Origin: Octopus vulgaris
Taxonomy: Eukaryota
NCBI GenBank assembly: GCA_951406725.2
Contig: OX597834.1
Coordinates: forward strand, 5,332,001-5,396,000
Length of the DNA: 64,000 bases
Direction: 5' to 3'
Shown: piece by piece, positions 2,798-57,549 of the stretch
How positions within the stretch are numbered: the first letter of the stretch is position 1
Layout: each line of letters begins with the position of its first letter
Translations under genes and position numbers: made by a program
Notes under the pieces: generated by a model
Told to the model about the DNA's origin: nothing
The model's database searches: none
What the model saw: the letters and a program-made list of their open reading frames with translations, nothing else

Positions 2798-3218
2798 GGC
2801 GCAGGAGTGGCTGTGTGGTAAGTAGCTTGTCTACCAACCACATGGTTCCGGGTTCAGTCCCACTGCGTGGCACCTTGGGCGAGTGTCTTCTACTATAGCC
2901 TCGGGCCGACCAAAGCCTTGTGAGTGGATTTGGTGGACGGAAACTGAAAGAAGCCCGTCGTATATATGTATATATATATATATATATGTGCGTGTGTGTG
3001 TTTGTGTGTATGTGTTTGTCCCCTAGCATTGCTTGACAACCGATGCTGGTGTGTTTATGTCCCCGTTACTTAGCGGTTCGGCAATAGAGACCGATAGAAT
3101 AAGTACTGGGCTTACAAAAGAATAAGTCCCGGGGTCGAGTTGTTCGATTAAAGGCGGTGCTCCAGCATGGCCGCAGTTAAATGACTGAAACAAGTAAAAG
3201 AGTAAAAGAGTAAAAGAG
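2798..3218 (+). mobile_element. tRNA-derived SINE family A (OK-like), reference copy
   Basis: Head with Pol III A-box-like tggctgtgtggt and B-box-like ggttcagtccc; central microsatellite; 3' gactgaaacaag(taaaagag)n; about 20 copies in the window. Confidence 0.9.
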
Positions 3219-3365
3219 AGAGAGTTACCAGGGTAGCAAAATTCACGCAAGTAATATGGATGAAGCGACCTATTCAAAGGTAGAAACTCCGGCTTAATGT
3301 GCAGTACTTTGCGTAGTATAAGTAAATAAATTGAGTTGAACGAAGATGTTATTAAAATTCTTTTA

Positions 3366-3447
3366 CTTTCGACATATGTTTCGAAGACAACATGGTATTA
3401 TTCCAAAGGAATAAACGGTGTAAACTGAAATCTTCTCATCAGGAAAG
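3366..3447 (-). ncRNA. Type I hammerhead ribozyme, canonical core (family HH-A), in a Penelope-like/retrozyme-like repeat of about 3226-3470
   Basis: Minus strand reads CTTTC-CTGATGA-GAAGA..(ttattcc-ttt-ggaataa)..TCTTC-GAA-ACATATGT-C-GAAAG; stems I, II and III all pair. Confidence 0.85.
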
Positions 3448-3734
3448 AAAGAGAGCCTCTCTCAAGAACAAGACATTATAACAATTACGATGACTGCCTA
3501 AATGATAAACAGAACGTTATTAAGTATTTTTAAAAAACCGTTAGTAGATTTGAAGGCAAAGGCAGATACTAGAAAGAGAAGGGTTAAAGAAATAATAATA
3601 TATATATATGGAGAGAGATGTATCTTTTATCTTTTACTTATTTCAGTCACTAGAGTACAGCCATGCTGGTTGTAAAGCAGCAGTGGGGGACAATCACAGG
3701 CATAAAGGCACACAAGCATAGATATCATCAACTT

Positions 3735-8570: not shown

Positions 8571-9089
8571 TGGATTATATATTTTTTGCAAAGTCAGAAA
8601 CACTGTAACCAGTGTTTTCAAGAATTATCTAGAAATAACACAGCCAGGTAAATATTGTATTTTTTTCCCAAATATGTTTCTAGCTTAAAAATGGAAGAAT
8701 CACTTATGACCCCTTCCAGGGCTTCTAAAACTGGTGTCAAAGAAGGGAGCAAAATATCTTCAACCTGGGGAGAACTGGTCCAAATTTTTACAAGATTAAT
8801 TCCATTGAAAGCACCTAAACACCAGGTTATGGTGCGAACAGCAGATTAACCCAACAATCTAAACTCAGAATTGATCTTAGAAGCAGTCTTTCATACAGTT
8901 TCTGTCAATTCAACCTCACTCATGAGACTTTGGTGCTATGCAATGGGATCAAACTTAAAATCACATAGTCATGAAATAAATTTATCTACTATTGCAGGTG
9001 TGGCCGTGTGGTATGAAGTTTGCTTTCCAACCACATGGTTTGGGGTTCAGTCTTGTGAATGGATATGGTATACAGAAACTAAAAGAGGC

Positions 9090-9120
<31 letters not shown>

Positions 9121-9121
<1 letters not shown>

Positions 9122-9657
9122 AATTAGTAAATAAATGGCACAACTAAGTACCGATACTTACTGGAAATAGCGAACGTAAAAATACGACGCTAATGTGTAG
9201 CTTCACCGCGTATGTATTAGCAAAAATGCGTGTGTGCAACAAATTAGAGAAAAAAACCCGTCTTACCTCCAGGGAGAACATCTGAAAGATGAAACACCCG
9301 GAAAAGGATAATGTGGTACCTGCAGGTTTCAGGTTTTACAAGATATGTCTCACCCATATTTTGTTTTACCTTCATCAGCCAAACATATACCAAGACGAAA
9401 TCTACGATGTTACCACATTAATACTAACACACTCGACTGAAATGCGGAACGCTAACATTACGAGAAACGGTGAAGAAGTTTCAAAATATCAGTAATGCAA
9501 TACAAAGTATTGCCTTCCAGTAAAAAGTAGCCCGTGAGGGAAAAATACACAAATTAGTAAATAAATGGCACAACTAAGTACCGATATTTACTGGAAATAG
9601 CGAACGTAAAAATACGACGCTAATGTGTAGCTTCACCGCGTATGTATTAGCAAAAAT
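9121..9657 (-). mobile_element. Hammerhead-containing 430-bp unit with 107-bp direct terminal redundancy (retrozyme/Penelope pLTR-like)
   Basis: 9121-9227 is repeated at 9551-9657 with 1 mismatch; hammerhead lies between; abuts (TA)n. Confidence 0.75.
9311..9386 (-). ncRNA. Type I hammerhead ribozyme, canonical core (family HH-B)
   Basis: Minus strand reads TGG-CTGATGA-AGGT..(acaaaatatg/catatcttgt)..ACCT-GAA-ACCTGCAGGT-A-CCA. Confidence 0.88.
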
Positions 9658-9659
9658 AC

Positions 9660-9860
9660 TGCTACACATCGCTGGTCACAATGCGCTTCGCATTGTTTTA
9701 GCCTTGAAATGACGCCACTCCGCTGGCTAAGCGAGCAGGCCAACAGAAGAAAGAGTGAGAGAAAGTTGTGGCGAAAGAGTACAGCAGGGATCGCCACCAT
9801 CCCCTGCCGGAGCCTCGTGGAGCTTTAGGTGTTTTCGCTCAATAAACACTCACAACGCCT
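9660..9860 (-). mobile_element. SINE B short-tail subfamily (OR2-like), partial
   Basis: Reverse complement of the middle of 31445-31712. Confidence 0.8.
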
Positions 9861-9920
<60 letters not shown>

Positions 9921-23269: not shown

Positions 23270-23692
23270 GGATCTTTTCAGTTTGAACGGCAGTTTTTAA
23301 CATAATTTCTAGGTAACTAAAAAATTTTAAACTTCGTATAATGGTAGAATGTGTTTATAAAACATCTTTTTCTCTTGGCTTTATTGAGAAAATTCTATAG
23401 TTTGTAAGATATTTGTTGTTTTTTTCTTCAATTTCTGCAATTTCAACCAAACACTGACGTCTATTGAGTTAAAAAGCATTTTGTGCCGTATGAATATGTC
23501 CCTCGTTTAAGAAACAGATTGGGTTTATTTACATTTCTGAAACAAAAAATACCCTCCCCCCACCCCTAACCCTAACTAACCTTAACCCTAAAACAAATTG
23601 AAATGCAATAGATCGATTCTAAGGTCATAATTATGGGTGACAATTTCATATGACACCGCTAGAAAAAACTGCCGTTTAAACCGAAATGATCC
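23270..23692. mobile_element. MITE with GGATC termini, 8-bp TSD CTGAAATA and internal (CCCTAA)n
   Basis: TIRs ggatcttttcagtttgaacggcagttttt / aaaaactgccgtttaaaccgaaatgatcc; shares aaacttcgtataNtggtagaatgtgt with the 21467 MITE. Confidence 0.82.
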
Positions 23693-23736
23693 CTGAAATA
23701 TGCTGTACTGTAAGATATTACGAAATCCTACACATA

Positions 23737-25028
23737 CGAGGGACGTTCAATAAGTAATGCCTCTGACCTACTTGCAGTTGTTTGATCTAGCTGAAATTTT
23801 GCATGTGCAATCATTTATATCTCTATAGACTAAGTGGCAAATTACAGCTCTGAACTAATTGTGGTTTCTGATTTACAGGTGTTTGAACCGAGTCAAGTGT
23901 GAAATGGAGCCTGTTGAGTGTCGAGCAGTGATCCGGTTTTTGTATTTGAAAGGACGCACACCACGGGAGACTTTTGATGAAATGAAAGTAACTTATGGTG
24001 ATGATGCCCCATCATATGACCTTGTAAAACGCTGGCATCGTGAATTCAAACATGGTCGGAACTCTGTAGAAACAGCTCCCAGATCTGGTCGCCCCTTCTG
24101 CCATTGATGAGGCATCTGTCCGTCAAGTTGAGGCTGCTATTTTGGAAGATCGACGCATAATTATTCGCCAAATAGCCCATGAGGTCAAGATTAGTACCGG
24201 GTCTGTGGAAACTATCATTCATGACCATTTGCATATGCAAAAGGTGTCTACCAGATGGATTCCCAGGTTGCTCACGCCTTTCCAGAAGCAAGAACGCGTC
24301 GAGTGCTCGAGGGTGAATTTGGAGATGTGCCAAGAAGACGGGTCAAAATTTTTCAAAAGACTGTTTACACAGGATGAAACCTGGGTCCATCACGATGATC
24401 GAGAGACCAAAGCCCAGTCAATGCACTGGAAGCACCGTGACTCACCCCCTCCAAAGAAGGCAAGGGTGCAGCCCTCCGCTGGCAAGGTCATGCTCACAGA
24501 CTTCTGGGACCAGGACGGAGTAGTGATGACATATTTCCTAGCAAAGGGTACCACAATTGCAGGAGCCTATTATGCTGCACTTTTGAGGAAATTAAGAGAA
24601 GCTATCAGAATCAAGAGGCGGGGCAAGATCAGCAAAGGCATCCTCCTCCTGCAGGACAACGCTCCGGTCCAGAACTCGCGTGTCGCCAGATCAGAAGCAC
24701 AGGCGTATGGCTATGAACTCCTCCCCCATACCCCCTACTTTCCTGACCTTGCTCCTTCTGATTTTCACCTCTTTCCAGTCATGAAGTTGTTTTTGAAAGG
24801 AAAGCGTTTCCCAGATGATGCAGCCTTGATTTCTGAAGTCACGTTCAGGTTGGAGGACCAAGCTGGGGTCTTCTACAAAAACGGTCTCCAGAGTTGCATC
24901 AAGCAATGGGAGAAATGCGTAACTCTGGGTGGTTCCTATGTAGAAAAAAGACTAATAACTGTGCCAAGTTTCGTTGCTCTACTGCTATGGGAAGTGGGTC
25001 AGGGGCATTACTTATTGAACGCCCCTCG
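23737..25028 (+). mobile_element. Full-length mariner (DD34D) transposon, about 1.29 kb, TA TSD
   Basis: TIRs TA|cgagggacgttcaataagtaatgcc / ggcattacttattgaacgcccctcg|TA. Confidence 0.95.
23904..24955 (+). pseudogene. Mariner transposase with a frameshift near 24098 and a probable +1 at the C-terminus
   Basis: HTH region ..PRSGRP, WIPRLL, TQDETW, LQDNAP-34 aa-YFPDLAPSD, split across ORFs 23859-24107 and 24142-25068. Confidence 0.92.
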
Positions 25029-25275
25029 TATGTCGTCATTTGACATGAATAAACACTCTAGAACGTAAAACAAAGCTAAGTTTGTGTGATGACGATTATT
25101 TTTTAGGAAACGCTGCCAAAATAATGAGATAGTATTTTAGATGGAGATTTAAAGTTTCACTTGAAATTTCTAGAGATGTCGAGCAAGGAAAACATTTGTG
25201 TGTGTGCGCGTGTATGAATGTGTGTGTCTATGTGTGTGTGTACCTATGTACATATAAAATACATATACATATATA

Positions 25276-29496: not shown

Positions 29497-29591
29497 ATTA
29501 CCGGATTCATTCTTGTTGCTTATTTTTGTATATAAATGTATGTGTATCTTTTCAATGTGCACAAATAACACGGAAAAATATATGAATAATT

Positions 29592-30036
29592 ACTAGGGTT
29601 GCAAAAAATTCACATAAGTACCAAGGATGTTACTATCTACTTATAAACGTAGAAATTCCAGAGTTTAGTGAAAAGTTTTTGTATGCAAATAAAGAAAGAA
29701 ATGGAGTTAAATGCAGGTGTTATTCAAATCTTTATACTTCCGACATATGTTCCGAAGAAAACATCGGTATTATTCCAGAGGGAACAAAATGATGTAAAAC
29801 AATGCGATCTTCTCATCAGCGAAAAGAGAAACAACATCAAAAAGCCATTTTAACCATTCGATTAAAATGGTTTGTTGTTTAAAATGGCTTATTGATGATG
29901 TTTATCTTTTTTTCACTAATGAGAAAATTACATTGTTTTATATCATTTTATTCCCCTGGAATAATACCAATGTTTCTTCGAAACATTTGTCGGAAGTATA
30001 AAGATTTGAATAACACCTGCATTTAACACCATTTCT

Positions 30037-30038
<2 letters not shown>
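29592..30038. mobile_element. Family HH-A element with inverted arms (29695-29853 / 29878-30038), each carrying a decayed hammerhead
   Basis: Homologous to 3226-3470; left arm (minus) CTGATGA..GGA-ACATATGTC; right arm (plus) CTAATGA..GAA-ACATTTGTC. Confidence 0.75.
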
Positions 30039-30134
<96 letters not shown>

Positions 30135-49092: not shown

Positions 49093-49144
49093 ATGTCTGT
49101 GTACCTGTGTGTGTTTGTGTGTGTTTGTGTACGTGTGTGAGTGT

Positions 49145-49590
49145 GTATTGTATTGAATCAAAAATTTTGCAATATTTTGGTAACTTAACTACTTTATTCG
49201 TCGAGTTACAACACAAGCAGCCTTGCACTCGGAGTAGAGAGCATCGTGTTGCACCTTCTGAAGCCACCTTCCTGGCAGTTCTTTGATTCCAAGCTGCTTC
49301 CACTTCTTGTCCTTCGAAGCGAAGAACTCCTTTTTACTTGTTCCGATTCATGGCTCACTGAGCTCGTGACGCTTCATCAACCAAGAGGACACGGAAACTT
49401 CAGTGAAGAAGTTCTTCGAAAGACTTAAATTGGTATCTGCCTGAGTTCAAAGAACCGCCAGAAAGGTGTATCTAGAAGGTGCTACACGTTGGCCTCTATT
49501 TTGAATGGTTGGCTGCCTTTGTTGTTACTTGACGAACAAAGCAAATAAGTTAACCAAATGTCGCAAATTTTTTGACTCACGCACAATGTA
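49145..49590 (-). mobile_element. Mariner-derived deletion element (MITE-like)
   Basis: TIRs tgaatcaaaaattttgcaatattttggtaactt / aagttaaccaaatgtcgcaaattttttgactca; minus-strand EFFASKDKKWKQLGIKELPGRWLQ resembles a mariner C-terminus. Confidence 0.7.
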
Positions 49591-53346: not shown

Positions 53347-54489
53347 GAGGCCGAGGAAGGGCGAATGGCACCGCGAGTGTCGCGTTGCTCTCAAGCAACT
53401 CTGCCGTCCTGGGTCGACTTTGAGTGACTTCATCACAACCAAAGCATTCTATAGGGGATTAGTGGAGGGGAGGTACGACGACGAGCTTGGGGCGAACCTG
53501 GACGTCGACGAGGAATACCTGACCCTCCTGTTCGGGACGACTTTCGGGCCAGGGCCCATGGACAACTTCCAGAGATCCCTGGCCTGGCAGTGCTACCGAG
53601 AAGCGCTACCCGTTCGGGATAAGCTCTACAGACACGGCCCGAGAAACACGGAGCCGACCTGCCCGAGATGCGGTCAGAGCGACGAAACCGTTCTGCACGC
53701 ACTCGTGCAGTGTCCAACAATTTCCGACCTGTGGGCTTATGTCGAACAACTGCTGTCACGTGTGGGACGAGTCGGTTTATCAGCTGACTCTATCGTCAAT
53801 ATTGTCACGCCTCCTTCCTTCAAACGGGAAGGAAGAGCTATTTTCATCATCCTCGTGGCTATGGCGAAAGAATGTATCTGGTGGACGCGTCTGAAAGGAT
53901 TGGAGAGAAACACTTTCCTCTCTGGTCAATCTCTCATCAACTTCTTCAAGTACCACTTGAAGAGGAAAGTGAGAGTAGAGAGGCAAGTTTTGTCTAGCGA
54001 ACGTTTTAAAAAAAGATGGGTGAATGTAGCAAGGATGGCACGTATGAATGACGAAGCCACCTTGAGCATAATCCTATGAACCCAGAAATTGAAAACAGAG
54101 GGTTACCCACTTGCAAACAAATGTGGTAACATATAACAATATTGACCAAGGTTACCGTGGTCTTTTTCGTAGGCTTTTCTTCCCACGGATAAACCTTACT
54201 TGCTTTCCCCTTTACACCATACATCATGACACTCTGATACACGATCCCTATTGATCGTTTTTTTTCCCTCTTTCCCTTTTTTCCTCTTTTGTCTTCTTTT
54301 TTCATTTTTCTTTTCTTTAGGTCCCTTTCAGTTTTTTTCTTTTCCTTTTTTTAATTTTTTTAATTCTTTTTTTCCCTTTTACGATCCCTTTTGATCGAAA
54401 ACCTACGCCATCTTCCCCCCCCCAACAGAAAAGCTCTACCTTGTAACTTGTCCCATCTGTGTGCAGCCCTGTGTGGCCAATAAAGAAAC

Positions 54490-56094: not shown

Positions 56095-57549
56095 TACAAC
56101 CATCAGAAAACAAAGCAGAGGAATTTTCTTTCTTGATGCTCCTGGTGACACACGTAAAACATAGGTAACATTACTTCTCTCCAAAGTAAGGCACAAGAAG
56201 AAAAAAAGAAAATTGCAGTTGCTGTACCATTGTCTGGCTTTGCTGCCACCATTCTCACAGGAGGACGAACAGCTAATTCTGTTTTTAAATTACCACTAAA
56301 CCTGGTTACAAGTGACAGTCTAATTTGTAACATAAGCAAAGATTCAGGGTCAGCAGAAGTGTTGTACCAATGCCATCTGATCATTTGGGATGAGTGCACC
56401 GTGTCACATAGAGGTGCAATGGAAGCTCTTGGTGAGATCTTACGGACATCAGAGGTAACAATAAATTTATGGAAGGAGTTACATTAGTTTTATCAGGAGA
56501 CTTCAGACAGACATTACCAGTCATTCTGAGACGAATAAGATCTGATGAAATAAAAGCGTGCATTGAGTCTTCACACCTATTAAATAAAGTACAGAAATTC
56601 TCCTTCAATACTAACGTTCCAGATTCATTACATGGGGACCAATGTGCAGAACAGTTTTCAATCTGGGTCCTCCAATTAGGAAATGAGAAAGTACCACTTG
56701 ATGGGAATGATGATATCAGTTTGGCTCATATTGCTATCACGATGAATTCCCCAGCTCAATTGAAGAACAGGTTATCTCCACATTTAAGTAATAATTGTAA
56801 TTCACATAAATGGTTGTGTTAAAGAGCAATACTTAATCCAAAAAATGAGACAGTAGCAAGAATTAACCATGAATTAATGAATGAGATTCCGACAGCCATT
56901 AAGAAGTACAAATCAGTTGAGTCAGTCCTTGATGAAAATCAAGCTGTCCATTACCCAACAGAGTTCCTTAATTCCCTTGACCCACCTTTAATTCCTCCAC
57001 ATAAACTTTTTCTGAAGGAATGGGTCACAATAATGCTTCTAAGAAATTTAGATCCTCCTAAATTATGCAATGGGACAAAGATTGATTGTGAAGACATTAT
57101 CACCTAATGTGACAGAGGCTACCATCATCACTGGATATGCCTCTGGGGAAGAGTCTTTCATTCCAAGAATTCCAATCAAACCAACAGACATGCTCTTTGA
57201 ATTCAAATCAACACAATTCCCAGTGCGACTTTCCTTTGCAATGTCTATCTATACATCTCAAGGTCAGTCTTTGAAATCTAATGGCTTGATTCTCTCAAGG
57301 TCAACTTTGCCGGTTGCTCCAGGGTAGGTAGTTTGCAAGACTTGTTTGTCTATGCTCCAAAATAGACGACAAAGAATGTTGTTTACCCAGAAGCTCTGAA
57401 ATAATTTCCTTCAAATTATGTGGTAGAATTTATTTCCTTTCATAAAAATGGTAAATTTTGTATTTTCGTTTATTATTATTTTTTTATTGCTATTCTTCCA
57501 ATATGTAAGGAAAGATTTCATTCCCAAGCAACGCCGAGTGCCTCTGCTA

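What the first reader, a model, noticed from the sequence alone, without database searches (positions are those of the whole stretch)
9121..9657. 1.25-mer hammerhead unit: 430-bp monomer with 107-bp direct terminal redundancy
Seen: near-identical direct repeats (1 mismatch) bracket an ORF-less unit containing a canonical minus-strand hammerhead with a 10-nt palindromic stem III (ACCTGCAGGT). Established: animal non-LTR retrozymes occur as partial tandem repeats of a few hundred nt. Inference: reverse transcription went more than once around a 430-nt circular RNA, or this is a Penelope pLTR tandem. It appears recent.
Basis: partly seen in the sequence, partly recalled or inferred. Interest (0 to 1): 0.75.

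Follow-up and report, generated by a model that had tools for sequence, protein, structure and literature searches.

The report
Penelope-type hammerhead retroelement copy in octopus
A short, recently inserted jumping-DNA copy in an octopus-like genome carries a self-cutting RNA motif and repeats its own end, which is how known Penelope retroelements and their protein-less hitch-hikers (retrozymes) look; whether it was copied from a circular RNA remains open.

Summary
There are 107-bp direct repeats (1 mismatch, period 430) around an ORF-less unit with a minus-strand type I hammerhead and a 10-nt palindromic stem III. The host is most likely an octopod. The 537 bp sit with their 3' end on an (AT)n tract and replace the 35-bp tail of a SINE, with no TSD. 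This fits Penelope-like (PLE) target-primed insertion, and the ribozyme resembles Hydra-clade PLE hammerheads. Two new clues suggest that 430 nt is a natural unit: the arms on either side of the ribozyme pair into a rod (z about -4), and the 6-7 nt across the monomer junction could anneal to an (AT)n primer through G·T wobbles. Best reading: a non-autonomous PLE derivative (retrozyme-like) copied from an uncut, longer-than-unit template, either a tandem transcript or a circle. These two cannot be told apart here. Main rival: two 5'-truncated ends of a longer PLE in partial tandem. No second copy could be obtained, since no animal genome collection was on hand. The locus has one ribozyme, so it cannot itself make circles. 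It is a new member of a known kind.

The parts
9121..9657 (-). Whole 537-bp insertion (1.25 units); hammerhead-sense is the minus strand, 3' end at 9121
   Evidence: single copy in the window (blastn, nhmmer)
9551..9657 (-). Upstream, 5'-truncated partial copy (107 bp; pseudo-LTR-like); may run to 9659
9121..9550 (-). 430-nt monomer, 38% GC, ORF-less, predicted rod-like fold
9121..9227 (-). Downstream copy of the 107-bp repeat, forming the element's 3' terminus
9311..9386 (-). Type I hammerhead: stem I 9381-9379/9316-9314 (plus 9386-9384/9313-9311 after a bulge), core 9378-9372, stem II region 9371-9331, GAAA 9330-9327; predicted cut 3' of 9317 (GUA)
9318..9327 (-). 10-nt palindromic stem III; hairpin -0.4 versus intermolecular duplex -17.7 kcal/mol, suggesting dimer-type cleavage (inferred)
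9159..9522 (-). Long-range pairing of the arm downstream of the ribozyme (9264-9159) with the arm upstream (9392-9522)
   Evidence: duplex -69.3 kcal/mol, z -3.85, 0 of 100 shuffles; 2 of 87 window controls more extreme
9545..9551 (-). Monomer junction; the 6-7 nt lying 3' of the element's end on a tandem or circular template could pair with an (AT)n DNA primer (5 Watson-Crick, 2 G·T): candidate priming site
   Evidence: 6 of 430 positions have a run of >=6, 3 of 430 of >=7; post hoc
9161..9266 (-). Candidate retained spliceosomal intron (donor AG|GTAAG at 9266, pyrimidine-rich CAG acceptor at 9161); speculative
   Evidence: this donor 7-mer occurs 3 times in 128 kb of both strands; splicing untested
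9095..9121 (.). (AT)n target microsatellite, the tail of the left SINE-like repeat
8994..9094 (+). Left flank: internally deleted copy of an abundant SINE-like repeat ending in (AT)n
   Evidence: the SINE label is recalled, not from a call
9660..9862 (-). Right flank: second SINE-like repeat whose 35-bp 3' tail is replaced by the element
   Evidence: two fuller copies at about 36.0 and 31.5 kb keep the tail plus (AT)n; the SINE label is recalled

Best explanation
A non-autonomous derivative of a Penelope-like element (PLE), i.e. a retrozyme-like 430-nt unit, mobilised in trans. Steps: (1, inferred) a master copy with two or more units, or its circle, gives an RNA in which the unit's 3' end is followed by the unit's start. 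(2, inferred from known PLE biology) an autonomous (TA)n-targeting PLE protein of Hydra or Neptune type nicks an (AT)n tract. (3, inferred from sequence) the nicked DNA anneals to the 6-7 GU/AU-alternating bases just past the junction and RT starts at the unit's 3' end. (4, shown by the sequence) the copy runs across an uncut ribozyme site and on to 537 nt, one unit plus 107 nt. (5, shown against other copies) the 5' end joins the target with no TSD and loss of about 35 bp. The hammerhead probably cuts as a dimer in multimeric transcripts to release monomers (inferred). With one ribozyme, this locus is probably a dead-end daughter copy. Within this reading, linear tandem template versus circular template is about 60:40.
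For: Exact 1.25-unit layout. The 3' end lies on (AT)n, there is no TSD, and the SINE tail is lost at the 5' junction. The ribozyme has a 4-bp AC..GT stem III and a GUA site 196 nt from the 3' end, like the Hydra-clade hammerheads in PMC8557442 File S2, which target (TA)n. The monomer folds far better than shuffles (z -4.1 linear; -4.5 circular, 0 of 100), with pairing reaching to within about 28 nt of the 430 boundary. The junction bases pair with an (AT)n primer through G·T wobbles, whereas the rival template jump needs two C·A mismatches. Size (430 bp) and GC (38%) fit retrozymes of 150-450 bp and <50% GC (PMC7229834). PLEs make up 6.83% of O. vulgaris, with 31 recently active families. The host is likely an octopod.
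Against: No second copy was found, so a constant 430-bp period is untested: none in the window, in GTDB, in phages or plasmids, or through translated frames. Only one ribozyme is present, which is not an 'active retrozyme' by the two-ribozyme definition. The junction-priming match was noticed post hoc (about 1%, 6 of 430), and 2 of 87 control windows had stronger duplex z-scores. The same rod could form in the linear 3' UTR of a longer PLE. The active monomer fold is disfavoured by about 6 kcal/mol (p about 3e-5). A later deletion could have trimmed the upstream copy, so 107 need not be the RT stop. No parent PLE was matched (by eye; motif search).
Confidence: 0.62

Rival explanations
1. Partial tandem of two 5'-truncated 3' ends of a longer, possibly autonomous PLE. 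RT copied 430 nt of the 3' UTR, jumped to the 3' start of another RNA and copied 107 nt more. In this case 430 is an accident of this one insertion.
For: PLEs typically occur as partial tandems with a variably truncated upstream copy (PMC2377424; PMC8557442), and most copies are 5'-truncated. The window holds older hammerhead-bearing PLE-like ends of an unrelated family, including an inverted pair. The candidate intron fits a pLTR.
Against: A jump from the cDNA end at 9550 to an (AU)n-flanked 3' end needs two C·A mismatches in 7 nt, while the tandem or circle template needs only G·T wobbles. The predicted structure spans almost exactly the 430 nt. No trace of an ORF end was found in the unit.
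Confidence: 0.27
2. Remnant of a longer retrozyme or satellite array, or a local duplication: a dimer or multimer inserted and a later deletion removed the upstream ribozyme together with the SINE tail.
For: The 5' junction coincides with loss of the SINE tail. Retrozymes form arrays of up to hundreds of units.
Against: A single TPRT event with target deletion explains both features. The repeats are near-identical and the junction is blunt or nearly so.
Confidence: 0.06
3. A TRIM or LTR-retrozyme with 107-bp LTRs.
For: Two near-identical terminal direct repeats; a purine-rich 10-mer near one repeat.
Against: No TG...CA ends, no PBS in either orientation, no TSD. The ribozyme is type I and lies outside the repeats, whereas LTR-retrozymes carry type III in the LTR.
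Confidence: 0.02
4. Assembly artefact that duplicates 107 bp.
For: Both flanks are microsatellite- and repeat-rich.
Against: The repeats differ at one base, the layout matches a known biological signature, and the junction bases fit priming.
Confidence: 0.03

Closest known systems
Metazoan non-LTR retrozymes (Cervera & de la Peña 2020, PMC7229834; Li et al. 2026, bioRxiv 10.64898/2026.07.22.740005)
   Same: Type I hammerhead with palindromic stem III, monomer of a few hundred nt, GC <50%, no ORF/LTR/PBS/PPT, self-paired predicted fold, tandem layout, co-occurrence with PLEs.
   Different: Only 1.25 units and one ribozyme here. At 430 nt it is above the 170-400 nt circles reported. Stem II is long and stem III has 4 bp. 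No circRNA is shown, and no cephalopod example turned up in the searches made.
Hydra-clade PLE 3' ends (Craig et al. 2021, PMC8557442), including Hydra-1_Obim of Octopus bimaculoides
   Same: 4-bp AC..GT stem III with a 1-2-nt loop, GUA/GUU/GUC site, ribozyme about 100-200 nt from the 3' end, (TA)n target.
   Different: No RT/GIY-YIG ORF. The sequence differs from Hydra-1_Obim and from the three Octopus Naiad 3' ends (compared by eye). The stem II region is much longer.
Penelope (D. virilis) and Poseidon PAc (Anolis) pseudo-LTR partial tandems (PMC2377424, PMC11167929)
   Same: Truncated upstream copy plus full downstream copy, AT-rich target, ribozyme not cut in the copied template, an ATG overlapping the ribozyme core, candidate intron downstream.
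   Different: The unit is 430 nt without an ORF; the frame opened by that ATG stops after 43 codons and has no homologue. PAc starts RT at a site without target homology, whereas a short homology is seen here.

Membership tests
Type I hammerhead ribozyme | Core CUGANGA...GAAA...UH with stems II and III closed and stem I open | tested here: met
Type I hammerhead ribozyme | G10.1-C11.1 pair and loop 1-loop 2 tertiary contacts of canonical motifs | tested here: not met
   10.1-11.1 is A-U; a U before GAA is also seen in many Hydra-clade motifs; tertiary contacts were not modelled
Type I hammerhead ribozyme | Self-cleavage (monomer or dimer) | not testable with these tools
   Folding only: active monomer fold costs about 6 kcal/mol; palindrome duplex -17.7
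Non-LTR retrozyme | 150-450-bp ORF-less unit, GC <50%, type I HHR | tested here: met
   430 bp, 38% GC
Non-LTR retrozyme | No LTR, PBS or PPT | tested here: met
Non-LTR retrozyme | Two or more tandem units each with an HHR (active element) | tested here: not met
   One HHR at this locus; it would rank as a monomer derivative under the definition
Non-LTR retrozyme | Multi-copy family with a constant period | tested here: inconclusive
   None in 64 kb; no animal genome collection available; searches are uninformative negatives
Non-LTR retrozyme | Highly self-paired monomer | tested here: met
   z -4.1 to -4.5; prediction only
Non-LTR retrozyme | Expressed as circular RNA | not testable with these tools
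   No RNA data
Autonomous EN+ PLE | RT plus GIY-YIG ORF | tested here: not met
   None in 12 unit frames or 18 selected long frames of the window; not all 74 long frames were scanned
PLE-type insertion | Partial tandem (pseudo-LTR) with truncated upstream copy | tested here: met
PLE-type insertion | HHR near the 3' end, sense strand; 3' end on (TA)n | tested here: met
PLE-type insertion | Retained intron in the pseudo-LTR | tested here: inconclusive
   Donor and acceptor motifs at 9266 and 9161
PLE-type insertion | Optional 30-40-bp tail | not testable with these tools
   Needs several copies
PLE-type insertion | Sequence homology to a known PLE family | tested here: inconclusive
   No match by eye to four Octopus consensus 3' ends or by one exact motif on both strands in the Craig supplement; Repbase, Dfam and the O. 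vulgaris library were not available
TRIM / LTR-retrozyme | TG...CA LTRs, PBS, 4-5-bp TSD, type III HHR in the LTR | tested here: not met

The most novel reading that the evidence does not exclude
This is a footprint of rolling-circle reverse transcription of a 430-nt hammerhead circRNA by a Penelope-like RT. The monomer junction would double as a built-in primer-landing pad (GU/AU-alternating bases that wobble-pair with nicked (TA)n), and the circle might keep a spliceosomal intron. If sister copies show one fixed 3' start, one fixed junction and 5' ends spread over 0.2 to more than 2 turns with turn-to-turn identity, the family would give direct genomic evidence for the circRNA-template model of PLE and retrozyme mobilisation (hypothesised in PMC4209133 and PMC7229834) and a sequence rule for microsatellite targeting, in a cephalopod.
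Probability: 0.22. Interest if true: 0.62.

Novelty: new member of a known kind. Interest (0 to 1): 0.33.

Why it matters
As it stands, this extends a well-described class (PLE pseudo-LTRs and non-LTR retrozymes) to an octopod family that was not found in the papers searched. Its value is as a clean, young test case. How PLE partial tandems arise, and whether retrozyme circles are the real RT templates, is still stated as unresolved in the papers read. A 1.25-mer with a recognisable priming match makes specific predictions that one genome-wide search and one RNA experiment can test.

Tried and rejected
Rfam: no hit at the gathering threshold on the whole window; only two microsatellite-driven chance hits at E<=10. 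GTDB scans with two unit patterns: 0 loci each. Phage and plasmid blastn: none. These four negatives say nothing about an animal repeat. Protein searches with unit frames: none. The representative search gave 2 hits, P0012 and P0013, which proved to be translations of an unrelated short tandem repeat scoring through summed weak stretches; rejected. Octopus Naiad 'half-core' and Hydra-1_Obim 3' ends as parents: no match by eye. Motif searches in the supplements of PMC8557442 and PMC13282606: 0 hits (the latter holds no library sequences). The supplement of PMC7229834 could not be read and the bioRxiv supplements were closed; either might list a related family. Kinship with the second hammerhead family of the window: best local match 14 nt and no profile hit on the unit; rejected. 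TRIM reading rejected. One search timed out and was redone at smaller scale. The viral and metagenome contig collections stayed unchecked.

Full report
OBSERVATION. The window holds two 107-bp direct repeats at 9121-9227 and 9551-9657 with one mismatch and a spacing of 430 bp; two further bases on the right match with one more mismatch. The unit has no frame longer than 69 aa, and 0 of 12 frames scanned reach a Pfam cut-off. On the minus strand there is a type I hammerhead: CUGAUGA 9378-9372, a 41-nt stem II region, GAAA 9330-9327, a palindromic stem III 9327-9318 and a GUA site, with the cut predicted 3' of 9317. In 100 shuffles of the window, none gave a CUGANGA motif with a palindromic stem III of 8 nt or more. 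Departures from the canonical motif are an A-U pair at 10.1-11.1, a 3-bp stem I and a long stem II; Rfam misses it. No other copy lies in the window.

HOST AND CONTEXT. The window is AT-rich and full of microsatellites. A nearby RT-zinc-finger frame hits 11 proteins, of which the two that name an organism are from Argonauta hians and Octopus bimaculoides, so the host is most likely an octopod. The element's sense 3' end (9121) abuts an (AT)n tract that is the tail of one abundant repeat. Its 5' end abuts a second repeat, whose two fuller copies in the window continue for 35 bp plus (AT)n at the point where this one breaks off. No TSD was found. I call both flanking repeats SINEs from recall; ARAGORN finds no tRNA. 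The simplest history is insertion into the (AT)n between two tail-to-tail SINEs, with loss of target DNA at the 5' join. The repeats differ by 0.9% (95% CI 0.02-5.2%), about 1 Myr (0.03-7) on the calibration in PMC13282606 if they were identical at insertion. The host SINE differs by 5-6% from its fuller copies.

WHAT IT RESEMBLES. File S2 of PMC8557442 lists Hydra-clade PLE hammerheads with a 4-bp AC..GT stem III, a GUA/GUU/GUC site, a position about 100-200 nt from the 3' end and (TA)n targets. This unit shares those traits; its site is 196 nt from the end. It does not match by eye the 3' ends of Hydra-1_Obim or the three Octopus Naiads. PLEs occur as partial tandems of a truncated upstream and a full downstream copy, make up 6.83% of O. 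vulgaris and include 31 recently active families. Animal non-LTR retrozymes are 150-450-bp, low-GC, type I hammerhead repeats expressed as circles, and a 2026 preprint ties them to PLE pseudo-LTRs.

IS 430 NT A NATURAL UNIT? Two results say probably. First, the monomer folds much better than shuffles (z -4.1 linear; -4.5 circular, 0 of 100; antisense -2.7, 2 of 100). The arm downstream of the ribozyme pairs with the arm upstream (duplex z -3.85, 0 of 100; 2 of 87 control windows were more extreme; the second hammerhead locus shows none, z +0.6), and the pairing reaches to within about 28 nt of the 430 boundary. No predicted pair sits on the junction itself, and the same rod could form in a linear 3' UTR. 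Second, on a tandem or circular template the bases that follow the element's 3' end are those at 9550-9545. They can pair with an (AT)n DNA primer over 6 nt (7 with the shared base), using two G·T wobbles; 6 of 430 positions offer a run of 6 or more and 3 of 430 a run of 7 or more. The rival template jump would need two C·A mismatches. This was noticed post hoc and rests on one locus.

MECHANISM. Shown by the sequence: the copy runs from 9121 through the cut site and 341 nt beyond, so the template was intact there, either an uncut linear multimer or a re-ligated circle. Inferred: an autonomous (TA)n-targeting PLE supplied nicking and RT; priming used the junction match; RT stopped after 1.25 units; the 5' end joined with target loss. 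The active monomer fold costs about 6 kcal/mol and the palindrome is far more stable as an intermolecular duplex, in line with the dimer cleavage proposed for PLE and retrozyme motifs. With one ribozyme this locus cannot release a circle by itself. A circle is not required: a Poseidon PLE uses uncut RNA and fixed internal starts in vitro. That also means sister copies should have fixed 3' ends rather than free permutation. A donor AG|GTAAG at 9266 (3 such 7-mers in 128 kb) with a plausible acceptor at 9161 hints at a PLE-type retained intron; this is untested.

WHAT COULD NOT BE DONE. No animal genome or RNA collection was searchable. The GTDB, phage, plasmid and protein searches were empty or spurious, which is no evidence of single copy. 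Copy number, period constancy, circularity and cleavage remain untested.

PAPERS SEEN. 10.64898/2026.07.22.740005: parts 1-3 of 5, supplements closed. PMC11167929 and PMC4209133: parts 1-2 of 4. PMC7229834: parts 2-4 of 6 and passages, supplement unreadable. PMC8557442: passages, sections 11 and 15, supplement parts 2, 23, 24 and 53 of 59, and term searches. PMC13282606: part 1 of 3 and a supplement search. PMC3846280, PMC2377424, PMC10886601: passages. Searches for an octopus or cephalopod hammerhead or retrozyme returned no paper describing this family; subscription papers and Repbase/Dfam were not covered.

VERDICT. Real, young, and best read as a non-autonomous PLE derivative (retrozyme-like daughter copy, 0.62), against a chance partial tandem of truncated PLE ends (0.27). 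It works like a PLE or retrozyme insertion but is not an active retrozyme at this locus. New member of a known kind; interest 0.33, rising to about 0.6 if the family proves to record multi-turn copying of a circle primed at its junction.

Noticed in passing
window 3371-3442 (minus), within about 3200-3620: Second intact-looking PLE-type type I hammerhead (CUGAUGA, 53-nt stem II region, 8-nt palindromic stem III, GUC site), unrelated in sequence to the unit, with no terminal repeat seen.
   Followed up: partly
window 29570-29882 (minus) and 29840-30043 (plus): Two decayed copies (72-78% identity) of that second hammerhead family in inverted arrangement, ending at a (CT)n/(TA)n tract: the inverted layout typical of PLE insertions.
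   Followed up: partly
window 9660-9862: The flanking SINE-like copy also lacks an internal stretch of its head region that other copies keep, apparently through a short-homology deletion.
   Followed up: partly
window 24070-25068 (+): 332-aa open frame of a mariner-type transposase (Pfam Transposase_1, E 1e-19).
   Followed up: no
window 53348-54079 (+): Non-LTR retrotransposon C-terminal zf-RVT frame; relatives in Argonauta and Octopus bimaculoides.
   Followed up: partly
window 56158-56822 (+): Broken PIF1 helicase frames, probably a Helitron remnant (the Helitron label is inferred).
   Followed up: no
window 49135-49580 and 23275-23705: Control windows with strong self-complementarity (z -14 and -4.7), explained by inverted copies of abundant repeats or a short inverted repeat.
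   Followed up: partly
window 9375-9244 (minus): An ATG inside the ribozyme core opens a 43-codon frame through stem II, as the Poseidon PAc ORF does; no homologue found.
   Followed up: yes
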